Both the position numbers and the translations under genes were made by a program. A stretch of DNA of 64,000 bases from an uncultured Verrucomicrobiota bacterium. Its GTDB lineage: Bacteria; Verrucomicrobiota; Kiritimatiellia; CAJWTS01. The stretch's first letter is position 1, and each line of letters begins with the position of its first letter. This document shows positions 231 through 18,292 of this stretch, piece after piece. Below the pieces are notes generated by a model. That model did not search any database and had not been told where the DNA came from. It was given only the letters and a program-made list of their open reading frames with translations. The stretch covers positions 19,363-83,362 of the forward strand of contig CAJWTS010000006.1 in assembly GCA_913047795.1 (NCBI GenBank). The letters run 5' to 3'.

Positions 231-2249
231 ATGGAAGCCGCAGATCTTTTCTTTTACGCATGGGTCGTCTTTCGGTCTCTCTTCATTTTCCTCATAATTT
301 TCTTCATCGTCAGTGGTCTGGACGATCTGTTTCAGGACATCGTCTATTACTTGCGATGGATATTCAGGGCCATTTTTCGTCGCAAGCTCATCACGCCGGT
401 CACGCGCGAGCAGCTTGATGCCGTTCCGGAGAAGGCCGTCGCGATCATGGTCCCCGCCTGGGATGAGTCGGCGGTCATCGGACCGATGCTACTCAATACC
501 TGCAGCACACTGGACTACAAGAATTTCGTCGTTTTTGTCGGCACCTATCCTAACGATGAGGCAACGCGGGTTGAAGTCGAAAAAATTCGCGACATCTATC
601 CGAATATCGAAGTTGCCATTACGCCGTCCGACGGCCCGACCAATAAAGCCGACTGTCTGAACTGGGTCTACCAGGGGCTGCTTATTTACGAAATGGAACA
701 CGGGGTGCATTTCGATATTTTCTTGATGCACGATTCCGAGGACGTTATCCATCCGCTCTCGATCAAGTATTACAACTACCTGATCCCACGCCTCGACTTC
801 ATTCAGCTCCCGGTTTACCCGCTGGAGGCCAAGTGGACGGACCTGGTGATAGGCGTCTACATGGACGAGTTCGCGGAGAGCCACAGCAAGGATCTGCGCA
901 TTCGGGAGGCCCTGGCTCGTTCCATTCCGTCGGCGGGCGTGGGCACAGCCATGAGTCGCGCCACGATCGAGTTTCTCGCGTCCAGCCACGACAACCAGAT
1001 TTTCGACATCACATCGGTCACGGAAGACTACTTGATGGGACTCAAGCTGGAAGATTTCGAGGGGCGCAAGATATTCCTTCAGCAGGAAATCGAACGACCA
1101 GGCGAAGGGCGCAAGGAGCCGATTGCGACCCGCGCCCTGTTCCCGACGACGTTCGCGTCTGCCGTGCGCCAGAAGTCGCGCTGGATTCTCGGCATCGCGC
1201 TGCAGGGCTGGAGCGTGGGCTGGGGCCGCTCGCTCGGATCGGGCTATTACCTGTTTCGCGATCGCAAGGGAGTGCTCACGAACATCCTGGTTGTCGTGGG
1301 CTACATTGTCTTCTTCTGGTGGGCGATCAGCGGGTTCCTTAACAATCAATTCGCCGGAGTCGACATACCGCCGCTCGTGGAGACCGATGAGATCTGGTGG
1401 AACTTCAGCGGACTCGTACTGGCGCTCTTCGTCTGGCGCATCATCAATCGCGTGGGCTTCACCTGGCACGTCTACGGACCCAAGTTTGCGGTTCTGGCGT
1501 TCCCGCGCATGATTTACGCCAACGTGTTGAACTTCTGCGCGACCTTGGCCGCGATCAACGAATTCGCGAGTGCCAAGCGGGAGGGACGCGTGCCGGAGTG
1601 GAAGAAGACAGAGCATAGCTTCCCGTCCGAAGAACAACTGCGCCGCTACCGCCGGCGCCTGGGTGACATCTTGCTGGACAGGCGCTGGGTAACATCGGCC
1701 CAGTTACAGGAAGCCCTGGTGCGTCAGGAATCGGAGAAGCGCCCCCTGGGCGAACTTCTGGTCGAGATGGGCGTGCTCTGGGAAGAGGACGTAAAACTGG
1801 CGCTTTCTGTACAGGAAAATCGTCAGCGCGTGGAGATCGACCCCTACGCCACGCCCGGGGAACTCCTGAAGCGGGTGCCCCAGCACCTGGCGGAGAAGCA
1901 CAAGGTGTTTCCGCTGGCCTACAGCGGCGATCGAATCGTGTTGGCCACGGCGTCCGAGGACCGTTCCAACCTGGACGAGCTGAAGCGATCCCTCGACGCG
2001 ACGGTCGAGCTGCGCCACTCATCCGAAGCCGAGATCACGTTTGCTATTTCACGCGCCTACACCGACCTGCACCGGCCGGAATCGATGGAGGCCACCCTTG
2101 GCCAGCGCCTTATCGAAAAGGACCTGATCGACGAAAAGACGCTTCGCAAGGCCCTGCGCGAGCAGAAGGCCACGGACAAGCCCTTGGGCGAGGTATTGAT
2201 CAAGATGAAGGCCATCTCGAAGGTGGATCTCAAGGAGGGGTTGCAATAG
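231..2249 (+). CDS. nfrB: Family-2 glycosyltransferase (NfrB-like exopolysaccharide synthase): N-terminal TM segments, cytoplasmic GT-A domain, C-terminal tandem MshEN (T2SSE_N-like) c-di-GMP-binding domains
   Basis: 672-aa ORF. Hydrophobic N-terminus (FFYAWVVFRSLFIFLIIFFIV). GT2-like core (VPAWDESAVIG, MHDSEDVIHP). Four copies of the 24-residue MshEN motif at the C-terminus (RLGDILLDRRWVTSAQLQEALVRQ; PLGELLVEMGVLWEEDVKLALSVQ; TLGQRLIEKDLIDEKTLRKALREQ; PLGEVLIKMKAISKVDLKEGLQ). Confidence 0.8.
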   Translation: MEAADLFFYAWVVFRSLFIFLIIFFIVSGLDDLFQDIVYYLRWIFRAIFRRKLITPVTREQLDAVPEKAVAIMVPAWDESAVIGPMLLNTCSTLDYKNFVVFVGTYPNDEATRVEVEKIRDIYPNIEVAITPSDGPTNKADCLNWVYQGLLIYEMEHGVHFDIFLMHDSEDVIHPLSIKYYNYLIPRLDFIQLPVYPLEAKWTDLVIGVYMDEFAESHSKDLRIREALARSIPSAGVGTAMSRATIEFLASSHDNQIFDITSVTEDYLMGLKLEDFEGRKIFLQQEIERPGEGRKEPIATRALFPTTFASAVRQKSRWILGIALQGWSVGWGRSLGSGYYLFRDRKGVLTNILVVVGYIVFFWWAISGFLNNQFAGVDIPPLVETDEIWWNFSGLVLALFVWRIINRVGFTWHVYGPKFAVLAFPRMIYANVLNFCATLAAINEFASAKREGRVPEWKKTEHSFPSEEQLRRYRRRLGDILLDRRWVTSAQLQEALVRQESEKRPLGELLVEMGVLWEEDVKLALSVQENRQRVEIDPYATPGELLKRVPQHLAEKHKVFPLAYSGDRIVLATASEDRSNLDELKRSLDATVELRHSSEAEITFAISRAYTDLHRPESMEATLGQRLIEKDLIDEKTLRKALREQKATDKPLGEVLIKMKAISKVDLKEGLQ

Positions 2250-2251
2250 GC

Positions 2252-5200
2252 ATGAATCATCGATCCCGCATAAAGATTTCCTGCATTGCCGCCACGGGTC
2301 TCCTCTTGATTGGTGCCGGCCCGCTCGTGGCGGAAGAACTGTCGCAGGCCATGCCCATCCCGAAGCCGAAGGCGGGGTATGGCTGGTTCAAGAATCAGCG
2401 CGTCAACTACAGCAACCGTCCGTTGTGGAAGAAGGCCAACGCGTTGGTGGCGGAAGGCAAGCACACGCGCGCAGCGCGCGTCTACGATTCGATCCTCGCC
2501 ACGGACCCACACAACAACAAGGCCAAGGTTCACCTGATCCACCTCTACTTTCAGCTCGAAGAGTGGACCAGAGGCATCGACCTTGCCGAGAGCCTGATTG
2601 CGAATTATCCGGATTACCTCGATGCCTATTTCTTCAAGGCCAATTATGCGCTCAGGGCCGGGCGGACCCAATTGGCCGTCCGGACCTTCGAAGACATTCT
2701 CAATCGCGACCCCAGCCGGGCGGTCGCGAATTCCGAGGCGTACAAGGGCCTGGCGCGCGCACGATTTCCGGCGCGGGCGTATCAGAAGCGTCTACCCGAG
2801 GTGCACCGTAGCCTGGCGCGACTGTACTCCCTGAGCGGCGACGCCATGCGCGCGGAGGAACACGCCGCGCGTTGGCGTGACCTGACCGACGAGGGCGAAG
2901 CACATCTTTTTGTCGCCGAGAGCGCACTGAGCCGCAAAGACTGGGACAAGGCGATGGAGGCCCTGACCCTTGCCGGCGAACGCGTCGATACGGAAGAGCT
3001 GAAAGGACGCCTGAGTCTCAAGCGCGGAATGGTCCTCTATAATCTGAAGGATTACGACCGCGCGATGAACGAGCTCATGAACGCCGAAAGCAGAACCGAG
3101 AACGCCGCGGACAAGGCCCTGGCCCAGCGTTACCTCGGCCAAATTGCACTCAAGAAGGGCGCGAACACACGTGCGGCCGATTACCTGTTGTCCGCTACCG
3201 CGATCGCTTTTGACGAAGACGCTGGCGCCGCAGCCCTGCAGGCATTAATGGCGTCCGAGCAATGGGAACGCGGGGTAACCGCGGCCGAGAAGATGCTCAA
3301 GCGGGAAAATCTCTCCGATAACTTCCAGCGCGTGGCGAATGAGAACCTGATGTATTTCTACAAGAATAGCGGCAACGACCGCGGGTATGCCATGGTTGCC
3401 GATAAGCTGCGGCGCGAGAGCCCGGATGATCCGCGCTACCTGCTCGAGAGCGCCGTCGGTGCCGACCGGCTGGGGCGCGATGAGCGCGCGCGCGAATTCT
3501 ACACCACATATCTGGAGGGAAAATTCGACCCGGCCGTTGCCTTCAACCTGTTCTACCTGTTGAAGGAAACCGAGGACCTGGCCGCCGGCGAGGTTGTGCT
3601 CGACCGGGTCGTGGCGACGGAAGGACTAACAGACGACATGCGGCTCGCCGCGAACTACGAACTTGCGCAGGTCTACCGCGCGACCAACCGCACCAATGAC
3701 TACATGCGCATCATGGACCAGGTGGTCCTCGAGAAGGCCGAGGCGGAGCTGCTGTTTGAATATGGCGTGCAGCTCTACGGCAGCGGCTACGATGACCTGG
3801 CCGTCGAGCTATTCAAAAAGGCGTTCGAGCGCCAGACGGAGGCTGCCGACAACTTCAAGACCGCGATTATCATCGCCAAGATCAACATCGGGCACGGCGA
3901 GAACGAGGTCGGCCGCGAATGGTTAGAAAAGGCGCGTGCGTTCGGCGAGGTCGATGACGAATGGCATATCACGATGGCGCGCACGTATTTCAACAACGCC
4001 GAATATGATGCGGTGATCGAGCGCCTGCTGGGCGTGGTCAGCGAGCAGGACACGGGCGGCAACCTGCTGCTCGGGTTTACCTACCACCTGATGCGCATGC
4101 CCGGTCTGTCGCTGTACCACCTGAATCGCGTCGGCTCGCCGGAGAAGCTGGACCCCAGCGAGCGCAATACGCTTTTCTCAAACCGGGCCTACCTCTGGTT
4201 TGACCAGGGCAACTACGTTAACGCGCTGGCGGATGCCGAACGCGCTGTTGCGCCGCACACCGCAGACCAGATGATGCTGGTCCAAATGAAGGCGCTGTTG
4301 CCGCTAAATCGCTACGAAGAGGCGCGCGATATCGGTCTTGAGTTGCTCGACACGATGGACGAGGAGGAGGCGCCTTCCTTCGTCGCCGACCTGATGAAGA
4401 CGCTGGGAACCGTTCATTTCTATCTCAACGATAACGAGAACGCGGTCGAGTTCTTCACGGCGGCACTTAAAGTTGATGACGGGCAGTACGACGTCTACTA
4501 CCTGCGCGCCCTCGCCTATCACCGGCTCGAGGAGTACGAGAAGGCCGAGGAAGATTTCCTCCTGATAGAGACGGAGTCGTCTTTCATCCCGGCCGTGCTC
4601 TGGGGCGACATGGGAATCGTGGAGGGCTATCTTGAGAATTACGATACCGGCACCGTGGTTCTGGCGCGGTCGCTCGAGTACTACCGGTACGATATCGACG
4701 GCATCGAAGAGATGGCATACCAGCACATGAAGAACAACGACAATGCGAAGGCGCAAGATGCGTTCTTCCGGGGCGTGCGCGCGTACGACAATGTTATCCC
4801 GTACATCACCGGGCCGGATCGCGAAATTTATACAGACGACCGCAAGGCCCTGAAGCGCGAGTACGCCAAGCTCGATCGGACGTGGACATTCGAAACCTAT
4901 GTTAACCGGACAGAATTTGGGGACGACGCGGTTGCGGGCTTCGCCGGAACGCTCTCGGCAGTGGACGGCGGCCTGCCCTCCCAGGCAGGTGTCTACCTGG
5001 GGTATCGACCTCCGAAGCTGGGGTTTCGAGATGAGAAGACCCTGGATGGGTTCGCGCGCGTGCTGGCGAATTTCGAGCCCGACTCCTGGGCCCTCGACGA
5101 GGATACCTATCAACTCGGGATTGGATTGGACTGGAAACCCTTCAAGGCGTTCAACTATTCGATGAGCTTCGAGAAGCTCATCGCGATCGGGGATAACGCC

Positions 5201-5638
5201 GAAGATAACTGGCTCTGGCGCAACAAGGGATCGGTTGAGTTTGGCGAGAAGCCGAAGAAGCTCAAGGAAGCCTGGACGAGCGGCCGACTCTATGGCGATA
5301 TCGCGTGGTATCTCGATGATCCCAATCGCGTCGTCTACTACCTCGACGGTCGCCTGGCGCGTACGATCGCACTTTCGGATACCTTCTTGCTGACGATTCC
5401 GCAGGGCAAAGCGGTGTGGCGCTATCAGAACAACGATCCCGACGGTATTGGTTCGTATGTGATAGCTTCGATCGGGTTCGAAGCGCGATTTCTCGAGAAA
5501 GAGAGAGATGCGCTGACCGAACGCTGGTACATGGATCTCTTCGCCCACTATGCCTGGGGTTGGTTCACGGACGAACCGCGGATCAAGGGCGATCGTAACT
5601 TCGAGGGCATCTGGTTCGGTGCCACGTTCCGGAAGTGA
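2252..5638 (+). CDS. nfrA: Outer-membrane exopolysaccharide export protein: signal peptide, long TPR-repeat periplasmic region, C-terminal beta-barrel (NfrA/PgaA/BcsC-like)
   Basis: 1128-aa ORF starting 2 nt after the nfrB stop. N-terminal signal-like segment (SCIAATGLLLIGAGPLVAEE). Hundreds of residues with Ala/Leu/Tyr-rich TPR periodicity. Last ~300 aa have alternating hydrophobic/aromatic beta-strand pattern ending ...GIWFGATFRK. Confidence 0.7.
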   Translation: MNHRSRIKISCIAATGLLLIGAGPLVAEELSQAMPIPKPKAGYGWFKNQRVNYSNRPLWKKANALVAEGKHTRAARVYDSILATDPHNNKAKVHLIHLYFQLEEWTRGIDLAESLIANYPDYLDAYFFKANYALRAGRTQLAVRTFEDILNRDPSRAVANSEAYKGLARARFPARAYQKRLPEVHRSLARLYSLSGDAMRAEEHAARWRDLTDEGEAHLFVAESALSRKDWDKAMEALTLAGERVDTEELKGRLSLKRGMVLYNLKDYDRAMNELMNAESRTENAADKALAQRYLGQIALKKGANTRAADYLLSATAIAFDEDAGAAALQALMASEQWERGVTAAEKMLKRENLSDNFQRVANENLMYFYKNSGNDRGYAMVADKLRRESPDDPRYLLESAVGADRLGRDERAREFYTTYLEGKFDPAVAFNLFYLLKETEDLAAGEVVLDRVVATEGLTDDMRLAANYELAQVYRATNRTNDYMRIMDQVVLEKAEAELLFEYGVQLYGSGYDDLAVELFKKAFERQTEAADNFKTAIIIAKINIGHGENEVGREWLEKARAFGEVDDEWHITMARTYFNNAEYDAVIERLLGVVSEQDTGGNLLLGFTYHLMRMPGLSLYHLNRVGSPEKLDPSERNTLFSNRAYLWFDQGNYVNALADAERAVAPHTADQMMLVQMKALLPLNRYEEARDIGLELLDTMDEEEAPSFVADLMKTLGTVHFYLNDNENAVEFFTAALKVDDGQYDVYYLRALAYHRLEEYEKAEEDFLLIETESSFIPAVLWGDMGIVEGYLENYDTGTVVLARSLEYYRYDIDGIEEMAYQHMKNNDNAKAQDAFFRGVRAYDNVIPYITGPDREIYTDDRKALKREYAKLDRTWTFETYVNRTEFGDDAVAGFAGTLSAVDGGLPSQAGVYLGYRPPKLGFRDEKTLDGFARVLANFEPDSWALDEDTYQLGIGLDWKPFKAFNYSMSFEKLIAIGDNAEDNWLWRNKGSVEFGEKPKKLKEAWTSGRLYGDIAWYLDDPNRVVYYLDGRLARTIALSDTFLLTIPQGKAVWRYQNNDPDGIGSYVIASIGFEARFLEKERDALTERWYMDLFAHYAWGWFTDEPRIKGDRNFEGIWFGATFRK

Positions 5639-6837
5639 CCATGGCGCGAGCACGGAGAACAAAGGACATGCGAAAAGCTTACGGCCTGATATTGATGATG
5701 GCAGCCTGCCTGTGGTCGCTCGACGGCCTGGCCGGAGATGCGACGTTTGTTCAGCTGAGTCGCGCCGCGGCAAAACGGTCGGCGGATGATTGGCGGGCGG
5801 AGTTTGAAAAGATGACGGCCATAGGGGTCGATACGATCATTCTGCAGTGGACGGCGGAGACAGACATTGCGTATTTCGTTCTTGTCGAGGACGCGGAGGC
5901 GCCGGAAGACCCCGTTGCCGCAGGGGTGCGCGCGCGGGAAGAAGACCTGGCCCCGACGAATCCGAGCGAGACCATGAAGGAGCCGGTCGTTCTGCCTGAC
6001 ATTTCCGCCGAGGAAACCTACCCCGAACAGTACCCGGTCCTGGAGCGGATTTTCGAGGCCGCCGAAGCAAGTGGCGTCTCGGTCGTGCTGGGCCTGCACC
6101 ACGATCCGAATTACTGGACCGAGATCACCGCACGCATGCGTGTATTGAAAGACTACTTTTATGTGCGCACCGCCCATAACGAACGGCTGCAATTGGAGTT
6201 GCTGAAGAAGTTCAGCCATCGCACGAGCTGGATCGGCTACTACGTGCCGGATGAGATCGATGATTTAACATGGCGCACGGATGCCAAGCTCGATCTCGTG
6301 GCGGGTTACGTGGCTCTCCTCAGCGAGCGCTTGCGCGCCAACGACGCCGACCGCGGCATCACGATCAGTAGCTTTTTCCGGCTGCGCACCGCCCCCGATG
6401 TCTATGCCCGTAACATCAAGCGCATTCTTTCCGGCAGCGACGTGACCGAGCTGTTGGTACAGGACGGCATGGGCGACGGCAACCCGTGGAAATACGCGAA
6501 ACACTATGTGCCGATTTACTATGAAACGCTTGCGGAGGTCCTGAAGGAAGAAGCCTACGATCGTAAAGTCGTGATTGAACTTTTTGAACGCGTCACGGAT
6601 GTGGGCGAACCCTTTCGTGCCGTTTCGGCGCCGGTCGATCGCGTCAGCCGGCAGATCGAAATGGCCGCCCCGCATTTCGCGGGGAAAGTCTACTTCACGT
6701 ACTCGAACTACATGCATCCGGCTCGGGGCGAACATGCCGCTGAGCTTTACGATGCAATGAAGTCCGGATCACGAAAAAGAGCCGCCGCAGTCGCCGCACC
6801 CGCCGCACCCGCCGCACCCGCACCGGAAGACAAGTAA
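5635..6837 (+). CDS. Secreted/periplasmic glycoside-hydrolase-like (TIM-barrel-like, YbcH/DUF4434-type?) protein with C-terminal Pro-Ala repeat tail
   Basis: GTG start overlaps the nfrA stop (GTGA). Signal peptide (MRKAYGLILMMAACLWSLDGLAG). ORF ends in AAAVAAPAAPAAPAPEDK. Third position in the nfr-like operon. Product assignment is tentative. Confidence 0.5.
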   Translation: MTMARARRTKDMRKAYGLILMMAACLWSLDGLAGDATFVQLSRAAAKRSADDWRAEFEKMTAIGVDTIILQWTAETDIAYFVLVEDAEAPEDPVAAGVRAREEDLAPTNPSETMKEPVVLPDISAEETYPEQYPVLERIFEAAEASGVSVVLGLHHDPNYWTEITARMRVLKDYFYVRTAHNERLQLELLKKFSHRTSWIGYYVPDEIDDLTWRTDAKLDLVAGYVALLSERLRANDADRGITISSFFRLRTAPDVYARNIKRILSGSDVTELLVQDGMGDGNPWKYAKHYVPIYYETLAEVLKEEAYDRKVVIELFERVTDVGEPFRAVSAPVDRVSRQIEMAAPHFAGKVYFTYSNYMHPARGEHAAELYDAMKSGSRKRAAAVAAPAAPAAPAPEDK

Positions 6838-6866: not shown

Positions 6867-9500
6867 TTGAGTTCACATATGCCCGGGCGTATAATCCCGC
6901 CTCTCGTGAAAGAGACCGAAATAGATGTTTTCCCCATGGAGCCGGCCGATCCCGTGCCCGCCGACAGGATTCGCGTGCTCGTTATCGATGACGAGGAGCC
7001 GATTCGGAGGCTTGCGCGTCGCATACTGATCCAGGCAGGGTGTACCGTGGAGGCCGCCGTCGATGGCCGTGACGGGTTGCAATTGCTGCTCGGGAGCGAC
7101 TTCGATGTTGCTGTTGTTGACCTCAAGATGAGCCGCATGGACGGTATCGCGTTTCTGGTCGAGGCGCTTCGGATCTGTCCCTGGATCGGCGTCGTCATCG
7201 TAACCGGATTGAGCCAGCAGGTCGACGTGGACCGCGCTCGAGAACTCGGCGTAAAACACATTCTCAAGAAACCGTTCAGGGTCGACGAATTCCGCGGCAT
7301 GGTTTTCGAGCAGGCCGAGGAAAAGCGTCGCAAGTTAACGACCTCGTCGGACATCTCCCTTGGACGTATTCAGAACGCGCTCGGGCTGTTTCGCCAACTG
7401 ACCTGCGCGGCGACGGAATCGGACACGCTGCTTGATGCCCTGCAGAGCCTGAGCACGGGCCTGCAGATACTGCCGTCGGCCGTCGTCGCGATCCTGAGCC
7501 TGGAAGAGGACCCGATCCTGGTGATCAGCGTGCTAAAGCCCGTGTCGCGGGAATTTCTACAGACCTTCGAGGATGAGATCCGGACGCGTTATCAACGATT
7601 CAGCGGCCAGACCCTCTCGAGCGAACTGCGGATCGAGGTGCAGGGCGTGGCCGAGAGCGAGGACGGCGCCGCCGCGGTTGGAAACTCGTTCAGCATTCCA
7701 ATTATCACCGGTGGCGACATCAGTGGCCTGCTCGCGCATGCGTCGATCGATAAAGACGCGTATTCCGAGACGGACATGTTGTTCATGTACCACGCTGCCA
7801 ACCTGCTCTCCACGGTGCTGCTGACCTTCCGCCGGATGAAACAGCTCGCGGTGCGCGATGCGCTCACGGGCCTGTATAACCAGCGCGGCCTGCGGGAGCA
7901 GATGGAGAGCGTGTGGCAGATGGTGAAACGCTATCACTACCGGGTCAGCATCGCCGTGTTGGACATCGACCAATTCAAGGCGGTCAACGATACCTATGGA
8001 CACCCGGTCGGCGACGAAGTGTTGCTCGAGTTGGGCGACCTGTTGCGCGTCAGTGTCCGCGCGTCGGACATCATCGGCCGTTACGGCGGTGACGAATTCG
8101 TCATCTTGTTCCCCAATGCCTCGCCGGAAGACCTCGCCGCGTTTTCGGAACGATTCATGGAAACGCTGCGCGGTCATATCTTCTGCGACGGCACGCACGA
8201 CCTGAAGCTGACCGTATCAATGGGCATGTCCAGCAGCTTTGGCCAGGACTGGCTCTTGCTCTCGAGCAACGAGATCCTGACCCAAGCCGATCAGGCGCTC
8301 TATACCGCGAAAGATAACGGACGGGATCAGGTCTGCATGTGGTCGGCGGGCGGTTTCGCTGCGACCGAGACCATTGAGACGCTTGCGCCCGTGGCGCGCG
8401 AGACCGCCAAGCATGAAATCCAGGGTGCCGGGCGCCTGCTTGTCGTAGATGACGAGCAGGTCGTGCTCGACTACTTACGGACGGTTTTAAAAACCGAGGG
8501 CTACGAGGTCGTCGCCGTGCAATCCGCGGAAGAAGCCCGAGAGGCGTTGCGCTCTGCGCCCGGAGAAATCGGCATCGTCGTAACCGACATCACGCTTAAA
8601 GAGGAAAGCGGCTTGGATCTGCTCAAAGACCTTCGTTCCCTTGACGACATGCTTGTCGCGATTGTCATGACCGGGAACGTCACGCTCGATAACGCGGTCA
8701 GTAGTTTACGTCACGGTGCGTACGACTTCATCGAAAAGCCGATCGAAGTCGCCCCATTGCTTGCCGTTCTAAATCGCGCCCGCGAATACCGGCGCTTGCG
8801 CCTGCAGAACCGCCGCTACCAGCTGCGCCTCGAAGACATGGTGCGAGAAAAGAGCAAAGAGCTCTCGATTGCGCTCGAACAAGCTAAGCAGTCGTACAAC
8901 TTCACGCTCGAGGCACTGGTCAACATGATCGACGCGCGCGAGCAGAACACGGGTCGGCATAGCGTTAATGTCCGTGAGCTCTCCCTCATTCTCGGACGCG
9001 AACTGGACCTGGAGGAACGCGACATGCGGATCCTGAGCCAGGGCGCGCTCCTGCACGACATCGGAAAAATTGCGATTCCCGACAGCATCCTTCTCAAGGA
9101 AGGACCCCTCACGAGCGATGAGTGGGTTGTCATGCGCTCCCACGCCGAGAAGGGGTACGAGATCGTATCGCGATCGCCGTTTCTGAAGGAATCGGCCGAG
9201 ATCGTGCACTCCCACCAGGAAAAATATGATGGAACGGGCTATCCCCGCGGCCTCGCCGGCGATGATATATGTATGGGTGCCCGCATATTCGCGGTTGTCG
9301 ATGCCTACGATGCGATGCGCACCGACCGCCCCTACCGGAAGGCCATGCGCACAAGTGACGCCATAAACGAGCTGCGGACATATTCCGGAACGCAATTTGA
9401 TCCGACTGTCGTCGAAGCCGCGCTACGCTGCATCGACCAGATGGAGCGTGTCCGCGCCCTGACGACCGATATAGAAGCCAACGAAGTCGCCGCACGTTGA
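6867..9500 (+). CDS. Composite c-di-GMP enzyme: receiver (REC) - GAF-like - GGDEF diguanylate cyclase (intact GGDEF plus RxxD I-site) - second REC - HD-GYP phosphodiesterase
   Basis: 877 aa. REC1 (VLVIDDEEPIRR...VVDLKMSRMDG). GGDEF motif RYGGDEF at 8085-8099 preceded by RASD (I-site spacing). REC2 (LLVVDDEQVVLD...VTDITLKEESG). HD at 9054-9059 and GYP at 9237-9245 (HDIGK...HQEKYDGTGYPRGL). Confidence 0.85.
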   Translation: MSSHMPGRIIPPLVKETEIDVFPMEPADPVPADRIRVLVIDDEEPIRRLARRILIQAGCTVEAAVDGRDGLQLLLGSDFDVAVVDLKMSRMDGIAFLVEALRICPWIGVVIVTGLSQQVDVDRARELGVKHILKKPFRVDEFRGMVFEQAEEKRRKLTTSSDISLGRIQNALGLFRQLTCAATESDTLLDALQSLSTGLQILPSAVVAILSLEEDPILVISVLKPVSREFLQTFEDEIRTRYQRFSGQTLSSELRIEVQGVAESEDGAAAVGNSFSIPIITGGDISGLLAHASIDKDAYSETDMLFMYHAANLLSTVLLTFRRMKQLAVRDALTGLYNQRGLREQMESVWQMVKRYHYRVSIAVLDIDQFKAVNDTYGHPVGDEVLLELGDLLRVSVRASDIIGRYGGDEFVILFPNASPEDLAAFSERFMETLRGHIFCDGTHDLKLTVSMGMSSSFGQDWLLLSSNEILTQADQALYTAKDNGRDQVCMWSAGGFAATETIETLAPVARETAKHEIQGAGRLLVVDDEQVVLDYLRTVLKTEGYEVVAVQSAEEAREALRSAPGEIGIVVTDITLKEESGLDLLKDLRSLDDMLVAIVMTGNVTLDNAVSSLRHGAYDFIEKPIEVAPLLAVLNRAREYRRLRLQNRRYQLRLEDMVREKSKELSIALEQAKQSYNFTLEALVNMIDAREQNTGRHSVNVRELSLILGRELDLEERDMRILSQGALLHDIGKIAIPDSILLKEGPLTSDEWVVMRSHAEKGYEIVSRSPFLKESAEIVHSHQEKYDGTGYPRGLAGDDICMGARIFAVVDAYDAMRTDRPYRKAMRTSDAINELRTYSGTQFDPTVVEAALRCIDQMERVRALTTDIEANEVAAR

Positions 9501-9529
9501 CGCGTGGCCAAGAAGAAAGGGTTCCCCGT

Positions 9530-10636
9530 ATGTCGAGGTGCCGAATTTTATGTGTAGTCGGAACGCGACCGGAAGCCATCAAGATGGCGCCGGTCATCCG
9601 CGAGATTCAAAAGGACCCCGATACGTTCGATCTCACGATCAAGTCAACGGGTCAGCATCGTGAAATGCTGGTGCAGGCACTGAGTACCTTTTCGATCACC
9701 CCGAATGTCGACCTCGACATCATGGCCGGCGGCCAAACGCTGGCCTACGTGACCAGCGAAGTGCTGACCGCCATGCAGAGCTATCTGCAAAACAACGAGA
9801 CGGACGTGGTCATGGTACAGGGCGATACAACGACCACCATGGCCGCCGCAATGGCGAGTTTTTATAACGGCGTACGCGTGGCGCACGTCGAGGCCGGATT
9901 GCGTACCTGGAACGGCTGGGAACCCTTCCCCGAGGAGATGAACCGGCGCGTGACGAGCCTCGTGGGCCACTATCACTTTGCGCCGACGGACCTGTCCGCG
10001 CAGAACCTGCTCCGCGAGGGAGTCGATCCGGCACGCGTGCATGTGACTGGGAATCCGGTCGTCGATGCTCTGATGTATGTGCTGGAGCACACCGAAGCAC
10101 CGCCCACGCCGATCGCGGAGGGGCGGCCGTATATCCTGATGACCTGCCACCGGCGCGAAAGCTTTGGTGAGCCGATCCGGGAGATCTTTGGCGCGATTCG
10201 AGCGTTTGCGCAGACACATCCCGAGCTTTCGATATGGTATCCGGTGCATCCCAACCCGAAGGCCAAGGAACCGGCACACGAGATCCTTGGCGACTTGGAG
10301 AACGTCGTTTTGAGCGAGCCACTAGATTACGTGGGTTTCGTGCATGCCATGAAGGGCGCTTACCTTGTTGTATCGGATTCCGGCGGGGTCCAGGAAGAGG
10401 CACCGTCGCTTGGAAAACCGGTCCTGGTCTTGCGCGATGTCACGGAACGGCCCGAAGCCGTGGAAGCCGGGACCTGTCGGCTTGTCGGGCCGCACCGAGA
10501 CCGCATACTCGAGTCCCTGGAACGGCTCCTGTCGGACAAGGCAGAATATCAGCGAATGGCGGGAATCAGCAATCCCTTCGGGGATGGCGCCGCCGCGGAG
10601 CGTATCGTATCCCTCATCCGCGACGACTACGCCTGA
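9530..10636 (+). CDS. wecB: UDP-N-acetylglucosamine 2-epimerase (non-hydrolysing), makes UDP-ManNAc
   Basis: MSRCRILCVVGTRPEAIKMAPV..., DIMAGGQTL, HVEAGLRT, classic Epimerase_2 signatures. ATG at 9530 with AAGGG upstream. 29 nt after the previous gene. Confidence 0.9.
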   Translation: MSRCRILCVVGTRPEAIKMAPVIREIQKDPDTFDLTIKSTGQHREMLVQALSTFSITPNVDLDIMAGGQTLAYVTSEVLTAMQSYLQNNETDVVMVQGDTTTTMAAAMASFYNGVRVAHVEAGLRTWNGWEPFPEEMNRRVTSLVGHYHFAPTDLSAQNLLREGVDPARVHVTGNPVVDALMYVLEHTEAPPTPIAEGRPYILMTCHRRESFGEPIREIFGAIRAFAQTHPELSIWYPVHPNPKAKEPAHEILGDLENVVLSEPLDYVGFVHAMKGAYLVVSDSGGVQEEAPSLGKPVLVLRDVTERPEAVEAGTCRLVGPHRDRILESLERLLSDKAEYQRMAGISNPFGDGAAAERIVSLIRDDYA

Positions 10637-11817: not shown

Positions 11818-11979
11818 GGCAGCGTCAAAAATTGATTGTGTGTTCATCTCGCCCGGATCCAGTACTCTGTGCAAGCGGGTATTGGCGCTCCGCCTGCGCG
11901 CGCGGCATCTCCGTGCTACAGGAGTATCCTTGGCACAACAGCCCTAATCAAGGGCAAACTTGAAGGAGCCGGGAAAATC

Positions 11980-12447
11980 GTGGCGGCAACGGGAACCAAG
12001 AAAATTGTGACGAATCGCAAGGCGTTCAGGGACTATGAAATCCTTGAGCGCGTTGAGGCGGGCATTGAGTTACGCGGCACCGAAGTCAAATCGGCTCGGA
12101 ATGGCCACGTACGCCTCGATGGTAGTTTCGCACGTATAGATGGCCGGCAGGTTTGGCTGACGGATGCTCGTATCGAGCCCTACGACCATGGCAACCAGTT
12201 TAATCACGACCCCGTCCGTGCGCGGCGCCTGCTGCTGCACCGTAACGAAATTCGTCGCCTGACCGAGCACGCGGAGCGGCAGGGACACACGCTGGTTCCG
12301 CTCAGCATGTATTTCAAGCGCGGGATTCTAAAGGTGGAACTCGGGATCTGCCGCGGCAAGGCCAGTCGCGACAAGCGCGACGACATGAAGGCAAAGACCG
12401 CGGATCGCGAAGCCGAACGTGCCATGGCCGATCATCAACGCCAGTAA
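11980..12447 (+). CDS. smpB: SsrA-binding protein SmpB
   Basis: IVTNRKAFRDYEILERVEAGIELRGTEVKS...LLLHRNEIRRL. GTG start at 11980 preceded by GAAGGAG. The N-terminal extension of the 203-aa ORF was rejected. Confidence 0.85.
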   Translation: MAATGTKKIVTNRKAFRDYEILERVEAGIELRGTEVKSARNGHVRLDGSFARIDGRQVWLTDARIEPYDHGNQFNHDPVRARRLLLHRNEIRRLTEHAERQGHTLVPLSMYFKRGILKVELGICRGKASRDKRDDMKAKTADREAERAMADHQRQ

Positions 12448-12553: not shown

Positions 12554-13936
12554 CTACTCCACGTAACCCAGCGCGCGCAGCTTCGCGCGCTCCTCTTCGC
12601 CCAGGATCCGCTGCCCCGGGGGCGCGGTGACGTACCGGCGCCATGCATCGAGGACGGGGGTCAGCCGCGTCACGACAGCGGGCCGGGCGTCGTAGAGGTT
12701 TTCCAGTTCGCCGGGGTCGCGGCCGAGGTCATAGAGCTCCCGACGCCGCTCGTCTTCCGCGATGATCAGCTTCCAGTCCTCTACGCGAACGGCGAATTGC
12801 TCCCCGCCCAGAACGACCTTGCGCAACTTACGGCCCGGCGAGTAGAACTGCCGATAGAGAAAAATCGGGCGCGAGGCGAGGTCCCTGTCCTCGTTGCTCC
12901 GCCAACCGACGCCCAGGTCCAGGCCGTCGATCTCCTCCGGCGCCCCAATGCCGAGGGCTCCCAGAATCGTGGGCAGCACATCAACCTGTTCCACGGGCAG
13001 GCTGCGCCGCCCGGGCCGCAGCCTGCCCGGCCAGCGCATCATCAGCGGGACGCGTACCGATTCTTCGTAAATATTCACGGCATGGTATGGATCGTTGTGC
13101 TGCGTGAGGCCCTGGCCGTGGTCTCCCGTGATCACGACCAGTGTCGTTTTGGCCAGACCCAGTTTGTCGAGCGCGGCTAGCACTCGCCCGATTTCATCGT
13201 CGACGTAGGCGATCTCCCCATCATATCCGGCGCCCAGATTGTTGCGTCCCGCGGCCAGGCGTCGCGCGTATTCGATCGGAGGGCGGTAGGGTTCGTGCGG
13301 ATCGAAATAATGAAGGGTCAGCAGGAACGGCCGGTGTGGCTTGCGTGTCCGCGTCAGCCACTCGACGGCGCGACGCGAAACCACCGTCGCGCGACGATCA
13401 AAGCCGTCCCGAATCGCGATACCTTCCCATTCCTGGATATCGAACTTGCCCTCATCGCGCCCGAAATCCTGCTGATAGACGTCGTAGCCCTGGGCGAACC
13501 CGAAGCGCGCGTCCAGCACAAAGGAGCCGAGAACGGCCGCGGTCTGGTAGCCCTCGTCGCGCAACACCTCGGCCAGCGTGTGGTGGCGTTCCGCGAGCAC
13601 GACCGCGTTGGCGTTGACCCCGTGGCGCGGCGCGTAGATGCCCGTAAAGAGCGTGGCGTGGCTGGGTCCCGTCGTGGACGAGGCGGCGTATGCATTATCG
13701 AACACAACGGCGTCCGCGGCGAATGCCTCGAGGTTTGGCGTTGACGGTCGTGCGTAACCATACACCGACATGTGATCGGCGCGTATCGTATCGATTGAAA
13801 TCAACAGGACGCCGGGCGGCGGATGACGGCTGCCGCAGCCCAGATGGAGCAGAAGAAGGGACGTGCCGGCGAGCGCCAGGAGAGCGCTGGAGCGCAGGCA
13901 CCTGGACGGACGGAAATGGAGGCCAAGCTTCATCAC
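12554..13936 (-). CDS. Sulfatase-like (alkaline-phosphatase superfamily, PF00884-type) secreted lipoprotein; the nucleophile position carries Thr rather than Cys/Ser
   Basis: Lipoprotein signal (LLLLHLGCGS). LLISIDTIRADH metal-binding motif. SSTTGPSHATLFTG in the position of the sulfatase C/S-x-P-x-R motif. Confidence 0.7.
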   Translation of the reverse strand: MMKLGLHFRPSRCLRSSALLALAGTSLLLLHLGCGSRHPPPGVLLISIDTIRADHMSVYGYARPSTPNLEAFAADAVVFDNAYAASSTTGPSHATLFTGIYAPRHGVNANAVVLAERHHTLAEVLRDEGYQTAAVLGSFVLDARFGFAQGYDVYQQDFGRDEGKFDIQEWEGIAIRDGFDRRATVVSRRAVEWLTRTRKPHRPFLLTLHYFDPHEPYRPPIEYARRLAAGRNNLGAGYDGEIAYVDDEIGRVLAALDKLGLAKTTLVVITGDHGQGLTQHNDPYHAVNIYEESVRVPLMMRWPGRLRPGRRSLPVEQVDVLPTILGALGIGAPEEIDGLDLGVGWRSNEDRDLASRPIFLYRQFYSPGRKLRKVVLGGEQFAVRVEDWKLIIAEDERRRELYDLGRDPGELENLYDARPAVVTRLTPVLDAWRRYVTAPPGQRILGEEERAKLRALGYVE

Positions 13937-14353: not shown

Positions 14354-15994
<1,641 letters not shown>

Positions 15995-16366: not shown

Positions 16367-18292
16367 TTACTTCTTGTCGTCGACCATTTCGAAGTCGGCA
16401 TCGATGACATCCTCGTCCTTACCCTGCTCCTCCCCCGCTTCTTGGTCGGGTCCGGGCGCGTCGCCGTCCGCGGGGCTGTCTTCGGCGGCCTCGGGATCGT
16501 CGGTCTGGGTATAGAGATCGGCCGTTACGGCCTGCATCTCCGTGTTGAGAGTTTCGATGGCCGCCTTCATCTGGTCCGTGTCGCCGGACTCGATGGCCTT
16601 CTTTAAGCCGTCAATTGCGCCTTCGACCGTGCTCTTTTTCTCGGCATCGATCTTCTCGCCGTTGTCGTTCATGAGCTTCTCGGTCTGGTACACCAGATTC
16701 TCCGCGAGGTTGCGCGTCTCGACCTTATCGCGCTCCTCCTTGTCCTGCTCGGCGTTCTTCTCGGCATCGGAGACCATGGAATTGATCTCATCTTCGGACA
16801 GGCCGCTTGCGGCGGTGATCGTGATCTTCTGCTCCTTGCCGGTGCCGAGATCCTTGGCGGAGACGTTCAGAATGCCGTTGGCGTCGATATCAAAGCTGAC
16901 CTCAACCTGGGGCGTGCCACGCACCGCTGGCGGGATGCCATCGAGATGAAAGCGTCCGATCGACTTGCCGTCCTTGGCCATCTTGCGCTCGCCCTGCAGC
17001 ACGTGAATCTCAACCGTGGGCTGGTTGTCGGCCGCGGTGCTGAATATCTCGCTCTTCTTCGTGGGAATCGTCGTGTTGCGTTCGATCAGCGGCGTGAAGA
17101 CTCCACCCAGGGTCTCGATGCCCAGCGTCAACGGCGTCACGTCGAGCAGGAGCACGTCTTTTACATCGCCCTGTAGGATGCCGCCCTGAATCGACGCGCC
17201 CGTGGCAACAACCTCGTCCGGGTTCATGCCCTTGTGCGGCTCCTTGCCAAAAAGCTCCTGGCACATCGCCTGCACCTTCGGCATGCGGGTCATGCCGCCC
17301 ACCAGGATCGACTCGTCAATACCGTCCAGATCCGCATCCTTCAGACAGGACCGTACCGGGTCCGCCGTCCGCTCAATGAGGCTATCGACCAGCTGCTCGA
17401 GGGTCGCACGCGAAAGCGTCACGTTCAAATGTTGCGGCCCGGATTCGTCGGCGGTGATGAAGGGCAGGTTGATGTCGGTCTCTTGCGTGCTCGAAAGCTC
17501 GCATTTTGCCTTCTCCGCCGACTCCTTCAGGCGTTGCAGGGCCATCGTATCCTGCGAGAGGTCGATGCCCTTGTCCTTCTTGAACTCCGCGACGAGCCAG
17601 TTGATGACGGCCTCGTCGAAATCGTCTCCTCCAAGGTGCGTATCGCCGTTGGTCGCCTTGACTTCGAAAACGCCGTCGCCGATGTCCAGCACGGACACGT
17701 CAAAGGTTCCGCCGCCGAGATCGTAAACGGCGATCTTCTCGTCCTTCTTCTTATCCAGGCCGTATGCCAGCGCGGCCGCGGTCGGTTCGTTGATGATGCG
17801 CAGCAGATTGAGCCCTGCGATGCGCCCGGCATCCTTGGTCGCCTGGCGCTGGCTGTCGTTGAAATACGCTGGGACCGTCACCACGGCATCCGTAATAGGC
17901 TCTCCCAGGTAGGCCTCGGCGTCCACCTTCAGCTTCTGCAGAATCATCGAAGAGATTTCTTGTGGCGTGTAGGTCTTGTCGGCGACCTGGATGTTGACGT
18001 CGCCGTTGTCGGCCTTGACAACATCGTAAGGCACCAGCGAGATCTCGTGGGCCACCTCGTCGTACTTGCGGCCCATGAATCGCTTGATCGAAAAAATCGT
18101 GTTCTCGGGGTTGGTGACAGCCTGCCGCTTGGCAGCCTGCCCCACAAGGCGCTCGCCGCTCTTGGTGAAGGCGACGACCGAAGGTGTCGTACGCCCGCCT
18201 TCGGCATTGGGGATGACCGTCGGCTCACCACCTTCGAGTACAGCCATACAGGAGTTTGTCGTGCCAAGGTCTATTCCAATTACTTTTCCCAT
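16367..18292 (-). CDS. dnaK: Molecular chaperone DnaK (Hsp70)
   Basis: 641 aa. [23 protein letters not shown], acidic C-terminus. Sits directly upstream of groES on the same strand. Confidence 0.95.

What the first reader, a model, noticed from the sequence alone, without database searches (positions are those of the whole stretch)
1656..2246. Four tandem 24-residue MshEN motifs (two MshEN domains) at the C-terminus of the glycosyltransferase
The last ~200 aa contain four copies of the RLGxxLLxxGxIxxxxLxxALxxQ-type motif that mediates c-di-GMP binding in MshE/T2SS ATPase N-domains: RLGDILLDRRWVTSAQLQEALVRQ, PLGELLVEMGVLWEEDVKLALSVQ, TLGQRLIEKDLIDEKTLRKALREQ, PLGEVLIKMKAISKVDLKEGLQ. A duplicated receptor module could bind two c-di-GMP molecules or integrate two inputs. 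The first copy is the most divergent (R instead of G at motif position 10).
Basis: partly seen in the sequence, partly recalled or inferred. Interest (0 to 1): 0.6.

Follow-up and report, generated by a model that had tools for sequence, protein, structure and literature searches.

The report
NfrB-type synthase with extra c-di-GMP module
The four motifs are real: this is an ordinary relative of the E. coli sugar-polymer synthase NfrB, and its tail carries one complete cyclic-di-GMP sensor domain plus a second, shortened copy, an arrangement that is common in the family (E. coli included) but not mentioned in the papers I could search.

Summary
Observation confirmed. ORF 231-2249 (+, 672 aa) carries four MshEN-type motifs at aa 476-499, 505-528, 622-645 and 651-672 (nt 1656-2246). 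They are not strictly tandem. They form two 53-residue MshEN_N units, each passing the curated NCBIfam c-di-GMP-motif model (61.1 and 54.9 bits, cut-off 38). The units are separated by the MshEN_C alpha/beta subdomain (aa 533-612).

The protein is therefore GT2 synthase + one full MshEN domain + one extra MshEN_N unit with no C-subdomain. It is an NfrB relative in an nfrB-nfrA-ybcH operon. Downstream lie a REC-GGDEF-REC-HD-GYP enzyme and a WecB epimerase.

The extra unit is a family trait:
- 66 of 150 diverse representatives have two or more units.
- E. coli NfrB has a degenerate second unit.
- The NfrB papers I could read describe only the first.

Arg at position 10 is the family consensus. 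Motifs 3 and 4 are the divergent ones (T for R, D and K for G, last Gln missing).

Whether unit 2 binds c-di-GMP cannot be decided from sequence: the non-binding PilF GSPII-A scores the same. This is a new member of a known kind, of modest interest.

The parts
231..2249 (+). nfrB-like gene: membrane GT2 exopolysaccharide synthase with a C-terminal c-di-GMP receptor region (672 aa)
   Evidence: ORF. Pfam Glyco_tranf_2_3 at aa 70-320 (106 bits). NCBIfam NF012033 scores 578 bits (cut-off 537); the NfrB equivalog NF008411 scores 506 bits, below its cut-off of 1170. AF2 model pLDDT 87.4. Best PDB folds are BcsA and hyaluronan synthases.
438..1325 (+). GT2 catalytic domain (aa 70-365) with DSED 168-171, TED 264-266 and QKSRW 314-318
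   Evidence: Pfam hits. Motif positions. E265, D266, Q314, R317 and W318 are invariant in 90 homologues.
1656..1727 (+). Motif 1 (aa 476-499), RLGDILLDRRWVTSAQLQEALVRQ
   Evidence: All six contact positions are kept. R485 at position 10 is the clade consensus.
1743..1814 (+). Motif 2 (aa 505-528), PLGELLVEMGVLWEEDVKLALSVQ. With motif 1 it forms MshEN_N unit 1.
   Evidence: NF053729 61.1 bits. It is the only motif in the protein that fits the relaxed motif of Wang et al. 2016. G507 and Q528 are invariant. Predicted helices 477-483, 489-502, 506-512 and 518-529.
1827..2066 (+). MshEN_C alpha/beta subdomain (aa 533-612)
   Evidence: Pfam PF05157 33.8 bits, profile positions 5-86 of 90. Predicted strands 559-565, 568-573 and 591-596 with flanking helices. 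Foldseek matches to PilF GSPII-B and MshE over about 140 columns.
2067..2093 (+). Low-confidence linker (aa 613-621)
   Evidence: pLDDT about 60 in the full model and below 50 at fragment residues 152-156.
2094..2165 (+). Motif 3 (aa 622-645), TLGQRLIEKDLIDEKTLRKALREQ
   Evidence: L2, G3, L17, L21 and Q24 are kept. It deviates from the clade consensus at R622T and G631D.
2181..2246 (+). Motif 4 (aa 651-672), PLGEVLIKMKAISKVDLKEGLQ, 22 residues. With motif 3 it forms MshEN_N unit 2 at the extreme C-terminus.
   Evidence: NF053729 54.9 bits, profile positions 2-50 of 53. Predicted helices 623-629, 635-648, 652-658 and 664-671. There is no position-24 Gln, and that position is not conserved anywhere in the clade.
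2252..5638 (+). nfrA-like outer-membrane TPR + NfrA_C export protein (1128 aa)
   Evidence: Pfam TPR families and NfrA_C PF13283 at aa 950-1100 (41.6 bits). The gene starts 2 nt after the nfrB stop codon.
5635..6837 (+). ybcH-like DUF4434 protein (400 aa)
   Evidence: Pfam DUF4434 124.8 bits. NCBIfam PRK09936 95.6 bits. Same gene order as E. coli nfrB-nfrA-ybcH.
6867..9500 (+). REC-GGDEF-REC-HD-GYP protein (877 aa; start codon uncertain), a candidate local source and sink of c-di-GMP
   Evidence: Pfam Response_reg (2 stretches), GGDEF 328-488 and HD_5 683-848. The sequence shows RASD-x5-GGDEF, HD and GYP. Full-length homologues sit beside nfr genes in PVC loci L003, L005 and L017.
9497..10636 (+). 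wecB/nfrC-like UDP-GlcNAc 2-epimerase (start codon uncertain)
   Evidence: Pfam Epimerase_2 381 bits. A homologue lies next to nfrB in 50 of 80 related loci.

Best explanation
The gene encodes an NfrB-type, c-di-GMP-activated, membrane-embedded processive GT2 synthase. It probably polymerises a ManNAc-containing exopolysaccharide from the UDP-ManNAc supplied by the operon's own WecB. The polymer would be exported through the NfrA-like and YbcH-like proteins.

The cytoplasmic tail has three parts:
- MshEN_N unit 1 (motifs 1+2, aa 476-528).
- The MshEN_C subdomain (aa 533-612).
- After a flexible linker, a bare second MshEN_N four-helix unit (motifs 3+4, aa 622-672).

Unit 1 is the main switch. 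One c-di-GMP is sandwiched between the two motifs and relieves inhibition of the GT domain. The signal comes from the adjacent REC-GGDEF-REC-HD-GYP enzyme.

Unit 2 is an ancient, family-wide extra copy, not a peculiarity of this gene. Here it keeps both Leu triads, both position-3 glycines and one of the two glutamines. It has lost R1, R647 and the last Gln. I therefore take it to be a weaker, auxiliary c-di-GMP site (higher threshold, or local capture of ligand) rather than an independent second input.

Shown: the architecture, the homology, the family distribution and the operon.
Inferred from E. coli NfrB experiments: activation through unit 1.
Inferred from residue conservation only: weak ligand binding by unit 2.
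For: Architecture. Fold: C-terminal model versus MshE 5htl and PilF GSPII-B, E about 1e-6; full model versus BcsA and hyaluronan synthases.

Same operon order as E. coli nfrB-nfrA-ybcH, plus GGDEF/HD-GYP and wecB genes in cis.

E. coli precedent: NfrB414-745 binds c-di-GMP with Kd about 1 uM. Unit-1 mutations G491L and G519S abolish or reduce N4 infection (PMC8669469, PMC8669472).

An isolated MshEN_N (MshE 1-62) suffices to bind c-di-GMP, Kd 0.35 uM (PMC5013675). A bare unit 2 could therefore in principle bind.

Unit 2 is under selection in the family. In 94 sequences:
- Motif 3: R1 81, G3 90, L17 90, L21 87, Q24 89.
- Motif 4: G3 89, L2 84.

In 54 diverse two-unit representatives, G3 is kept in 50 and 46, and motif-3 Q24 in 39. 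Of 150 representatives, 66 carry two or more units.

Missing G10 is tolerated: unit 1 of the NfrB clade itself lacks it.
Against: Motif presence does not prove binding. PilF GSPII-A scores 55.2 bits on the same profile and does not bind, even after its consensus residues were restored (PMC12002112).

Unit 2 of this protein deviates at 3 of 15 clade-conserved columns (R622T, G631D, R647A). That puts it among the 9 most divergent of 94 sequences.

The final Gln of motif 4 is absent. In PilF GSPII-B the equivalent Q190E substitution brings the Kd to about 500 nM, roughly the level of MshEN, and the Q190E+Q218E double mutant abolishes binding (PMC11731258).

In E. coli, G491L in unit 1 alone abolishes function, so unit 2 cannot substitute for unit 1. 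E. coli unit 2 has lost the Gly of motif 3.

The NfrB equivalog model is not reached (506 bits against a cut-off of 1170). Substrate and product are therefore inferred, not shown.
Confidence: 0.55

Rival explanations
1. Unit 2 (aa 622-672) is a degenerate MshEN_N that no longer binds any nucleotide. It would work as a protein-contact module: docking on the GT domain (autoinhibition or release), on a second protomer, or on the operon's REC-GGDEF-REC-HD-GYP enzyme. The last option would keep the c-di-GMP source next to unit 1, as in local signalling of the DgcJ-NfrB type.
For: There is precedent for motif-bearing non-binders: PilF GSPII-A and XpsE (PMC12002112, PMC5013675). GSPII-A scores the same as unit 2 on NF053729.

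Unit 2 lacks R1 and the last Gln, and has lost three clade-invariant residues.

E. coli unit 2 is even more degenerate (8 of 15 conserved columns changed, Gly of motif 3 lost), yet it is retained. This argues for a function other than ligand binding.

The clade has its own conserved signature, ALRxQKR (R643 in 93 of 94 sequences), which is not part of the ligand-contact set.

E. coli NfrB physically binds DgcJ (PMC8669469).
Against: Ligand-contact residues that have no obvious structural role (G3 in both motifs, Q24 of motif 3, R1) are 86-96% conserved across the clade. That is hard to explain without a ligand.

No interaction surface has been mapped.

The AF2 models give no confident placement of unit 2 against anything: the linker has low pLDDT and the fragment pTM is 0.56.
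Confidence: 0.33
2. The two units sense two different signals. Unit 1 would bind c-di-GMP and unit 2 another cyclic dinucleotide such as 3'3'-cGAMP.
For: MshEN_N of V. cholerae binds cGAMP weakly, KD 3.3 x 10^-4 M (PMC5013675). Unit 2 has a distinct conserved signature.
Against: Nothing in the window points to a second nucleotide. The only signalling enzyme in the operon makes and degrades c-di-GMP. The two guanine-stacking Leu triads are symmetric and intact in unit 2. No MshEN-type module with another preferred ligand turned up in the papers I read.
Confidence: 0.05
3. The repeat is a chance resemblance or a low-complexity helical artefact, not a real domain.
For: The loose motif is Leu-rich. 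Shuffled proteins give 0.17 hits on average.
Against: Profile E-values are 6e-17 and 5e-15. The 29-residue phasing is exact. The unit is conserved in 92 long homologues and in distant phyla. Both units are confidently predicted as four-helix bundles.
Confidence: 0.01

Closest known systems
E. coli K-12 NfrB (b0569), the c-di-GMP-activated glycosyltransferase of the Nfr / N4-glycan-receptor system
   Same: Same order of parts: one N-terminal TM helix, a GT2 domain with D-x-ED / TED / QxxRW, TM helices, MshEN_N, MshEN_C and a second C-terminal MshEN_N. Same operon order nfrB-nfrA-ybcH. Position 10 of motif 1 is not Gly in either protein.
   Different: The score on the NfrB equivalog model is only 506 bits, against a cut-off of 1170. 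E. coli unit 2 is far more degenerate (Gly of motif 3 lost), and about 30 further residues follow it. Here wecB and a GGDEF/HD-GYP gene are inside the operon, whereas E. coli uses unlinked nfrC/wecB and dgcJ. The host is probably a PVC-group bacterium (best hits are Kiritimatiellia and Verrucomicrobiota MAGs).
Vibrio cholerae MshE N-terminal domain (MshEN, PDB 5HTL)
   Same: A 53-residue, two-motif, four-helix c-di-GMP-binding unit followed by an alpha/beta MshEN_C subdomain. Sequence hit E 1.8e-6 and Foldseek hit E about 3e-6.
   Different: MshEN sits at the N-terminus of a secretion ATPase. Here the domain is at the C-terminus of a glycosyltransferase and is followed by a second, bare MshEN_N.
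Thermus thermophilus PilF (three consecutive GSPII/MshEN domains A-B-C)
   Same: Repeated MshEN units in one polypeptide. Query aa 475-672 aligns with PilF 166-356, i.e. GSPII-B plus the N-subdomain of GSPII-C. PilF shows that repeated units can differ in affinity (12 nM against 324 nM) or not bind at all (PMC11731258, PMC12002112).
   Different: PilF is an ATPase with complete domains. In the query the last unit lacks its C-subdomain and the final Gln.
BcsA cellulose synthase (GT2 + C-terminal PilZ)
   Same: A membrane-embedded processive GT2 activated by c-di-GMP through a C-terminal receptor domain. It is the best structural match to the full model.
   Different: The receptor is a PilZ beta-barrel, not a helical MshEN unit, and there is a single receptor domain.

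Membership tests
MshEN_N c-di-GMP-binding unit (NCBIfam NF053729; Wang et al. 2016) | Two 24-residue motifs joined by a spacer of about 5 residues (53-residue unit) | tested here: met
   Starts at aa 476/505 and 622/651, each pair 29 residues apart. The last motif is 2 residues short.
MshEN_N c-di-GMP-binding unit (NCBIfam NF053729; Wang et al. 2016) | Profile score above the curated cut-off (38 bits) | tested here: met
   Unit 1 scores 61.1 bits and unit 2 scores 54.9 bits.
MshEN_N c-di-GMP-binding unit (NCBIfam NF053729; Wang et al. 2016) | Six ligand-contact residues per motif: (R/K/L)1, L2, G3, L17, L21, Q24 | tested here: inconclusive
   Unit 1 has 11 of 12; P505 at position 1 is allowed by the relaxed motif. 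Unit 2 has 9 of 12, with T622, P651 and no Q24 in motif 4. Only motif 2 fits the published relaxed regex.
MshEN_N c-di-GMP-binding unit (NCBIfam NF053729; Wang et al. 2016) | Four-helix-bundle fold | tested here: met
   AF2 predicts four helices in each unit with pLDDT about 80-95. Foldseek confirms unit 1 + MshEN_C against 5htl and 8pdk. For unit 2 the evidence is only the predicted helices and the profile match.
MshEN_N c-di-GMP-binding unit (NCBIfam NF053729; Wang et al. 2016) | Specific binding of c-di-GMP | not testable with these tools
   This needs ITC, DRaCALA or co-folding with the ligand. The profile score does not separate binders from non-binders: PilF GSPII-A scores 55.2 bits.
Full MshEN domain (Pfam PF05157: MshEN_N + MshEN_C) | An alpha/beta MshEN_C subdomain directly after the four-helix unit | tested here: met
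   Met for unit 1: Pfam hit at aa 533-612, 33.8 bits against a cut-off of 23.1. Not met for unit 2, because the protein ends at aa 672. There is therefore one full MshEN domain, not two.
NfrB-type c-di-GMP-activated glycosyltransferase | GT2 domain with DxD-type, TED and QxxRW signatures | tested here: met
   DSED 168-171, TED 264-266 and QKSRW 314-318. Pfam GT2 hits.
NfrB-type c-di-GMP-activated glycosyltransferase | NCBIfam equivalog NF008411 above its cut-off (1170 bits) | tested here: not met
   505.9 bits over aa 10-662. The sister model NF012033 (PRK15489) is passed at 578 bits against a cut-off of 537. The protein is a homologue of NfrB, not an orthologue by NCBI's criterion.
NfrB-type c-di-GMP-activated glycosyltransferase | Operon with an NfrA-like outer-membrane TPR protein and a YbcH-like DUF4434 protein | tested here: met
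   Genes at 2252-5638 (NfrA_C PF13283) and 5635-6837 (DUF4434). E. coli gene order.
NfrB-type c-di-GMP-activated glycosyltransferase | Dependence on UDP-ManNAc (WecB/NfrC) and on a dedicated diguanylate cyclase | tested here: inconclusive
   The genes are present in cis, and wecB is adjacent in 50 of 80 related loci. Functional dependence was not testable.

The most novel reading that the evidence does not exclude
The second, C-terminal MshEN_N unit is a functional second cyclic-dinucleotide site. It is present in about 44% of diverse NfrB-like synthases, and E. coli NfrB keeps a remnant of it. The NfrB papers I could read do not mention it. If it binds ligand, this class of exopolysaccharide synthases would have a two-site (graded, cooperative or two-threshold) response to locally produced c-di-GMP. 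Variants with 3-5 units would then act as multi-site integrators.
Probability: 0.3. Interest if true: 0.55.

Novelty: new member of a known kind. Interest (0 to 1): 0.3.

Why it matters
NfrB is one of the worked examples of local c-di-GMP signalling. It is also the synthase of the glycan receptor for phage N4. All the functional papers I could read treat its tail as a single MshEN domain. One of them calls the remainder a domain of unknown function.

A second MshEN_N unit turns out to be a conserved, selectable part of the family, across PVC bacteria, Desulfobacterota, Acidobacteriota and Proteobacteria. This gives a concrete, cheap experiment: measure binding stoichiometry and make point mutants. 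The published Kd for E. coli was measured on a construct that contains both units, so that result could change how it is read.

For this window itself the finding is mainly an annotation. It is a complete, self-contained Nfr-type exopolysaccharide operon with its own c-di-GMP enzyme, in a poorly studied lineage.

Tried and rejected
1. Using the NF053729 bit score to judge whether unit 2 binds ligand. Rejected after calibration: the experimentally non-binding PilF GSPII-A scores 55.2 bits, the binders GSPII-B and GSPII-C score 63.2 and 52.0, and unit 2 scores 54.9.

2. The published relaxed regex of Wang et al. 2016. It catches only motif 2 of the query and 2 motifs of E. coli NfrB, so it is too strict for this family. 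I used a looser regex plus profiles instead.

3. Foldseek on the C-terminal model to place unit 2. The hits cover only about 140 columns (unit 1 + MshEN_C).

4. Inferring contacts of unit 2 from AF2. The tool does not return coordinates, the linker has low pLDDT and the fragment pTM is 0.56.

5. A regulatory RNA, such as a c-di-GMP riboswitch, upstream of or within nt 1-2400. No Rfam match at E <= 1. No tRNA or tmRNA in the window.

6. A solved NfrB structure. There is none in the PDB sequence or fold searches.

7. Literature on a second MshEN unit in NfrB. Nothing found in 4 searches or in the supplement of Wang et al., whose alignment lists only NfrB 481-558.

8. ORFs on the minus strand overlapping 1555-2671. 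I did not pursue them, because they lie inside a gene conserved end to end in 90 homologues.
Full report
**1. The observation**

Window 231..2249 (+) is a 672-aa ORF. A loose form of the MshEN motif hits at aa 476, 505, 622 and 651 (nt 1656, 1743, 2094, 2181). Within each pair the starts are 29 residues apart, which is the published 24 + 5 arrangement (motif definition from PMC5013675).

Shuffled versions of the protein give 0.17 loose matches on average. Each pair on its own passes the curated NCBIfam 53-position model NF053729 'c-di-GMP_motif': 61.1 bits (E 6.4e-17) and 54.9 bits (E 5.4e-15), against a cut-off of 38. Family profiles of the two pairs align in register over 52 columns (hhalign probability 99.4%, E 8e-22).

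**2. The anatomy differs from 'four tandem motifs / two MshEN domains'**

The two pairs are 93 residues apart. That stretch (aa 533-612) is the part hit by Pfam MshEN PF05157 (33.8 bits, cut-off 23.1). It corresponds to the alpha/beta MshEN_C subdomain defined in the MshE crystal structure (PMC5013675).

AlphaFold2 with 90 homologues gives pLDDT 87.4 for the whole protein:
- Unit 1: four helices at 477-483, 489-502, 506-512 and 518-529.
- MshEN_C: a beta-alpha unit at 543-609.
- Linker: low confidence at 613-621.
- Unit 2: four more helices at 623-629, 635-648, 652-658 and 664-671.

A model of the tail alone (pLDDT 86) shows the same pattern. It matches PilF GSPII-B and V. cholerae MshE with c-di-GMP at Foldseek E about 1e-6.

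Phmmer against PDB sequences aligns query 475-672 with Thermus PilF 166-356. That segment is GSPII-B plus the N-subdomain of GSPII-C.

The tail is therefore MshEN_N + MshEN_C + MshEN_N: one complete MshEN domain and one bare extra unit. That unit ends the protein two residues before the canonical last Gln.

**3. What the protein is**

The N-terminal two-thirds is a GT2 domain (Pfam 106 and 84 bits) with DSED 168-171, TED 264-266 and QKSRW 314-318. The full model is most similar to BcsA and to hyaluronan synthases.

NCBIfam places it with NfrB-like proteins. NF012033 is passed at 578 bits (cut-off 537). The E. coli NfrB equivalog NF008411 aligns over aa 10-662 but reaches only 506 bits against a cut-off of 1170.

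The following genes are:
- An NfrA-like TPR + NfrA_C protein at 2252-5638.
- A DUF4434 (YbcH-like) protein at 5635-6837.

This is the E. coli nfrB-nfrA-ybcH order. The operon then continues with:
- A REC-GGDEF-REC-HD-GYP protein at 6867-9500 with intact RxxD, GGDEF, HD and GYP.
- A WecB/NfrC-type UDP-GlcNAc 2-epimerase at 9497-10636.

In 80 related genomic loci, wecB lies within 10 kb in 50. A full-length homologue of the GGDEF/HD-GYP protein sits beside the nfr genes in several PVC-group genomes (L003, L005, L017).

In E. coli, NfrB needs WecB/NfrC and a dedicated cyclase, DgcJ. Its tail (414-745) binds c-di-GMP with Kd about 1 uM. G491L in the first motif abolishes phage N4 infection (PMC8669469, PMC8669472). 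The window thus holds a self-contained version of that system.

**4. The second unit is a family trait**

E. coli K-12 NfrB, read from NC_000913, has unit 1 at 489-540. It also has a second NF053729 match in its last 98 residues (47.2 bits). There the Gly of motif 3 is lost (FLFAEIL...), while motif 4 (PLGKFLVTEGVISQETLDRVLTIQ) is intact.

Of the 120 closest database homologues, mostly Kiritimatiellia and Verrucomicrobiota MAGs at 45-56% identity, 92 are 640 aa or longer. In the alignment these nearly all carry unit 2 at the very C-terminus. The 28 shorter ones, mostly about 540 aa, end right after unit 1.

A search of 1.84 billion cluster representatives found 7,201 homologues at E <= 0.001. 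The best 150 carry the following numbers of MshEN_N units:

| Units per protein | 0 | 1 | 2 | 3 | 4 | 5 |
|---|---|---|---|---|---|---|
| Proteins | 32 | 52 | 50 | 13 | 2 | 1 |

Two-unit members occur in Stenotrophomonas, Comamonas, Xanthobacter, Caulobacter, Desulfobacterota and Acidobacteriota.

The papers I could search describe a single MshEN domain in NfrB. The supplementary alignment of Wang et al. lists only residues 481-558. Sellner et al. call the remainder 'a domain of unknown function'. Junkermeier & Hengge and the 2023 review speak of 'the MshEN domain'.

**5. Which motif is divergent**

In the clade, Arg is the consensus at that position (73 of 94 sequences). E. coli has Gln there and still binds. 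Motif 1 keeps R1, L2, G3, L17, L21 and Q24.

Unit 2 of the clade is well conserved:
- Motif 3: R1 81/94, G3 90, G10 84, L17 90, L21 87, R22 93, Q24 89, followed by K and R at 90% or more.
- Motif 4: L2 84, G3 89.
- Position 24 of motif 4 is not conserved at all.

The query deviates at three of the 15 conserved unit-2 columns (R622T, G631D, R647A). That places it among the 9 most divergent of 94, where the median is 0. Its unit 1 shows only conservative changes. Its 93%-identical sibling P0001 also deviates at three of the 15 columns; at the first it has Ala where the query has Thr.

**6. Mechanism and its limits**

Steps I regard as shown:
- Domain architecture.
- Homology to c-di-GMP-binding MshEN units.
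- Family-wide conservation of the extra unit.
- The operon with a c-di-GMP enzyme.

Inferred from E. coli: c-di-GMP bound between motifs 1 and 2 activates the GT domain.

Inferred from residue patterns only: the role of unit 2.

For binding by unit 2:
- An isolated MshEN_N is sufficient for binding (Kd 0.35 uM for MshE 1-62; PMC5013675).
- Both Leu triads and both position-3 glycines are intact. The G11L and G40I variants of MshE show poor, if any, binding.
- Position 1 tolerates R, K or L, and R9 changes cost less than five-fold (PMC5013675, PMC11731258).
- G10 is dispensable, as unit 1 of NfrB shows.

Against binding by unit 2:
- The last Gln is missing. In PilF GSPII-B, Q190E brings the Kd to about 500 nM, and the Q190E+Q218E double mutant abolishes binding (PMC11731258).
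- Position 1 of motif 3 is Thr. The Ser at the corresponding motif-II start in non-binding GSPII-A was considered a major defect.
- GSPII-A did not bind even after all its consensus residues were restored (PMC12002112).
- GSPII-A scores 55.2 bits on NF053729, the same as unit 2.

I therefore commit, at moderate confidence, to unit 2 being a weakened auxiliary c-di-GMP site. The main rival is a non-binding protein-contact module.

**7. Verdict**

This is a correctly spotted, genuine feature. Its interpretation needs trimming. The protein is a typical NfrB-family synthase with one full MshEN domain and one extra MshEN_N unit. The duplication is old and widespread, not special to this gene. In this lineage the extra unit is somewhat eroded.

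Novelty: new member of a known kind. One aspect is under-described in the literature: the second unit, which is also present in E. coli NfrB. That makes a small, directly testable question.

Noticed in passing
window 6867-9500 (+): An 877-aa REC-GGDEF-REC-HD-GYP protein lies directly downstream of the nfrB-nfrA-ybcH genes. It has an intact I-site (RASD), GGDEF, HD and GYP, so it could both make and degrade c-di-GMP under two-component control. Full-length homologues sit beside nfr genes in PVC-group loci L003, L005 and L017.
   Followed up: partly
window 9497-10636 (+): A WecB/NfrC-type UDP-GlcNAc 2-epimerase is encoded in the same operon. Its listed start overlaps the stop of the previous gene by 4 nt, but the start is uncertain. 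In E. coli this gene is unlinked. It is adjacent to nfrB in 50 of 80 related loci.
   Followed up: partly
L001:7942-10179 (-), E. coli K-12 nfrB, last ~98 codons: E. coli NfrB has a second match to the c-di-GMP-motif model NF053729 at its C-terminus (47.2 bits, 2 stretches). The Gly of the first motif is lost. The NfrB papers I read do not mention this, although their binding construct 414-745 includes it.
   Followed up: partly
proteins P0170, P0163, P0210, P0124, P0154: Some NfrB-like synthases carry 3-5 MshEN_N units. P0170 has five almost head-to-tail (485-784). Others repeat the whole MshEN domain every 150 residues or so. P0131 (1916 aa) and P0157 (1657 aa) are giant fusions.
   Followed up: no
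window ~2043-2207 (aa 605-659 of the synthase): A weak Pfam DUF4388 (PF14332) hit (19.5 bits, below the cut-off of 25) overlaps unit 2. The same family is precomputed on many homologues. The DUF4388 model may therefore contain an MshEN_N-like helical segment.
   Followed up: no
homologues P0075-P0113: About 30 close homologues of about 540 aa stop right after unit 1, with no MshEN_C and no unit 2. The tail is therefore modular and has been trimmed repeatedly.
   Followed up: partly
window 622-648 aa region, nt 2094-2174: Unit 2 of the clade has its own near-invariant basic signature, ALRxQKR(T/S), with R643 in 93 of 94 sequences. This is not part of the published ligand-contact set, and its role is unexplained.
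   Followed up: no
window 11836-12447 (+): An SmpB gene is present, but ARAGORN finds no tmRNA or tRNA anywhere in the 64-kb window. Nearby are a sulfatase (12554-13936, -), GroEL (14354-15991, -) and DnaK (16367-18292, -).
   Followed up: no
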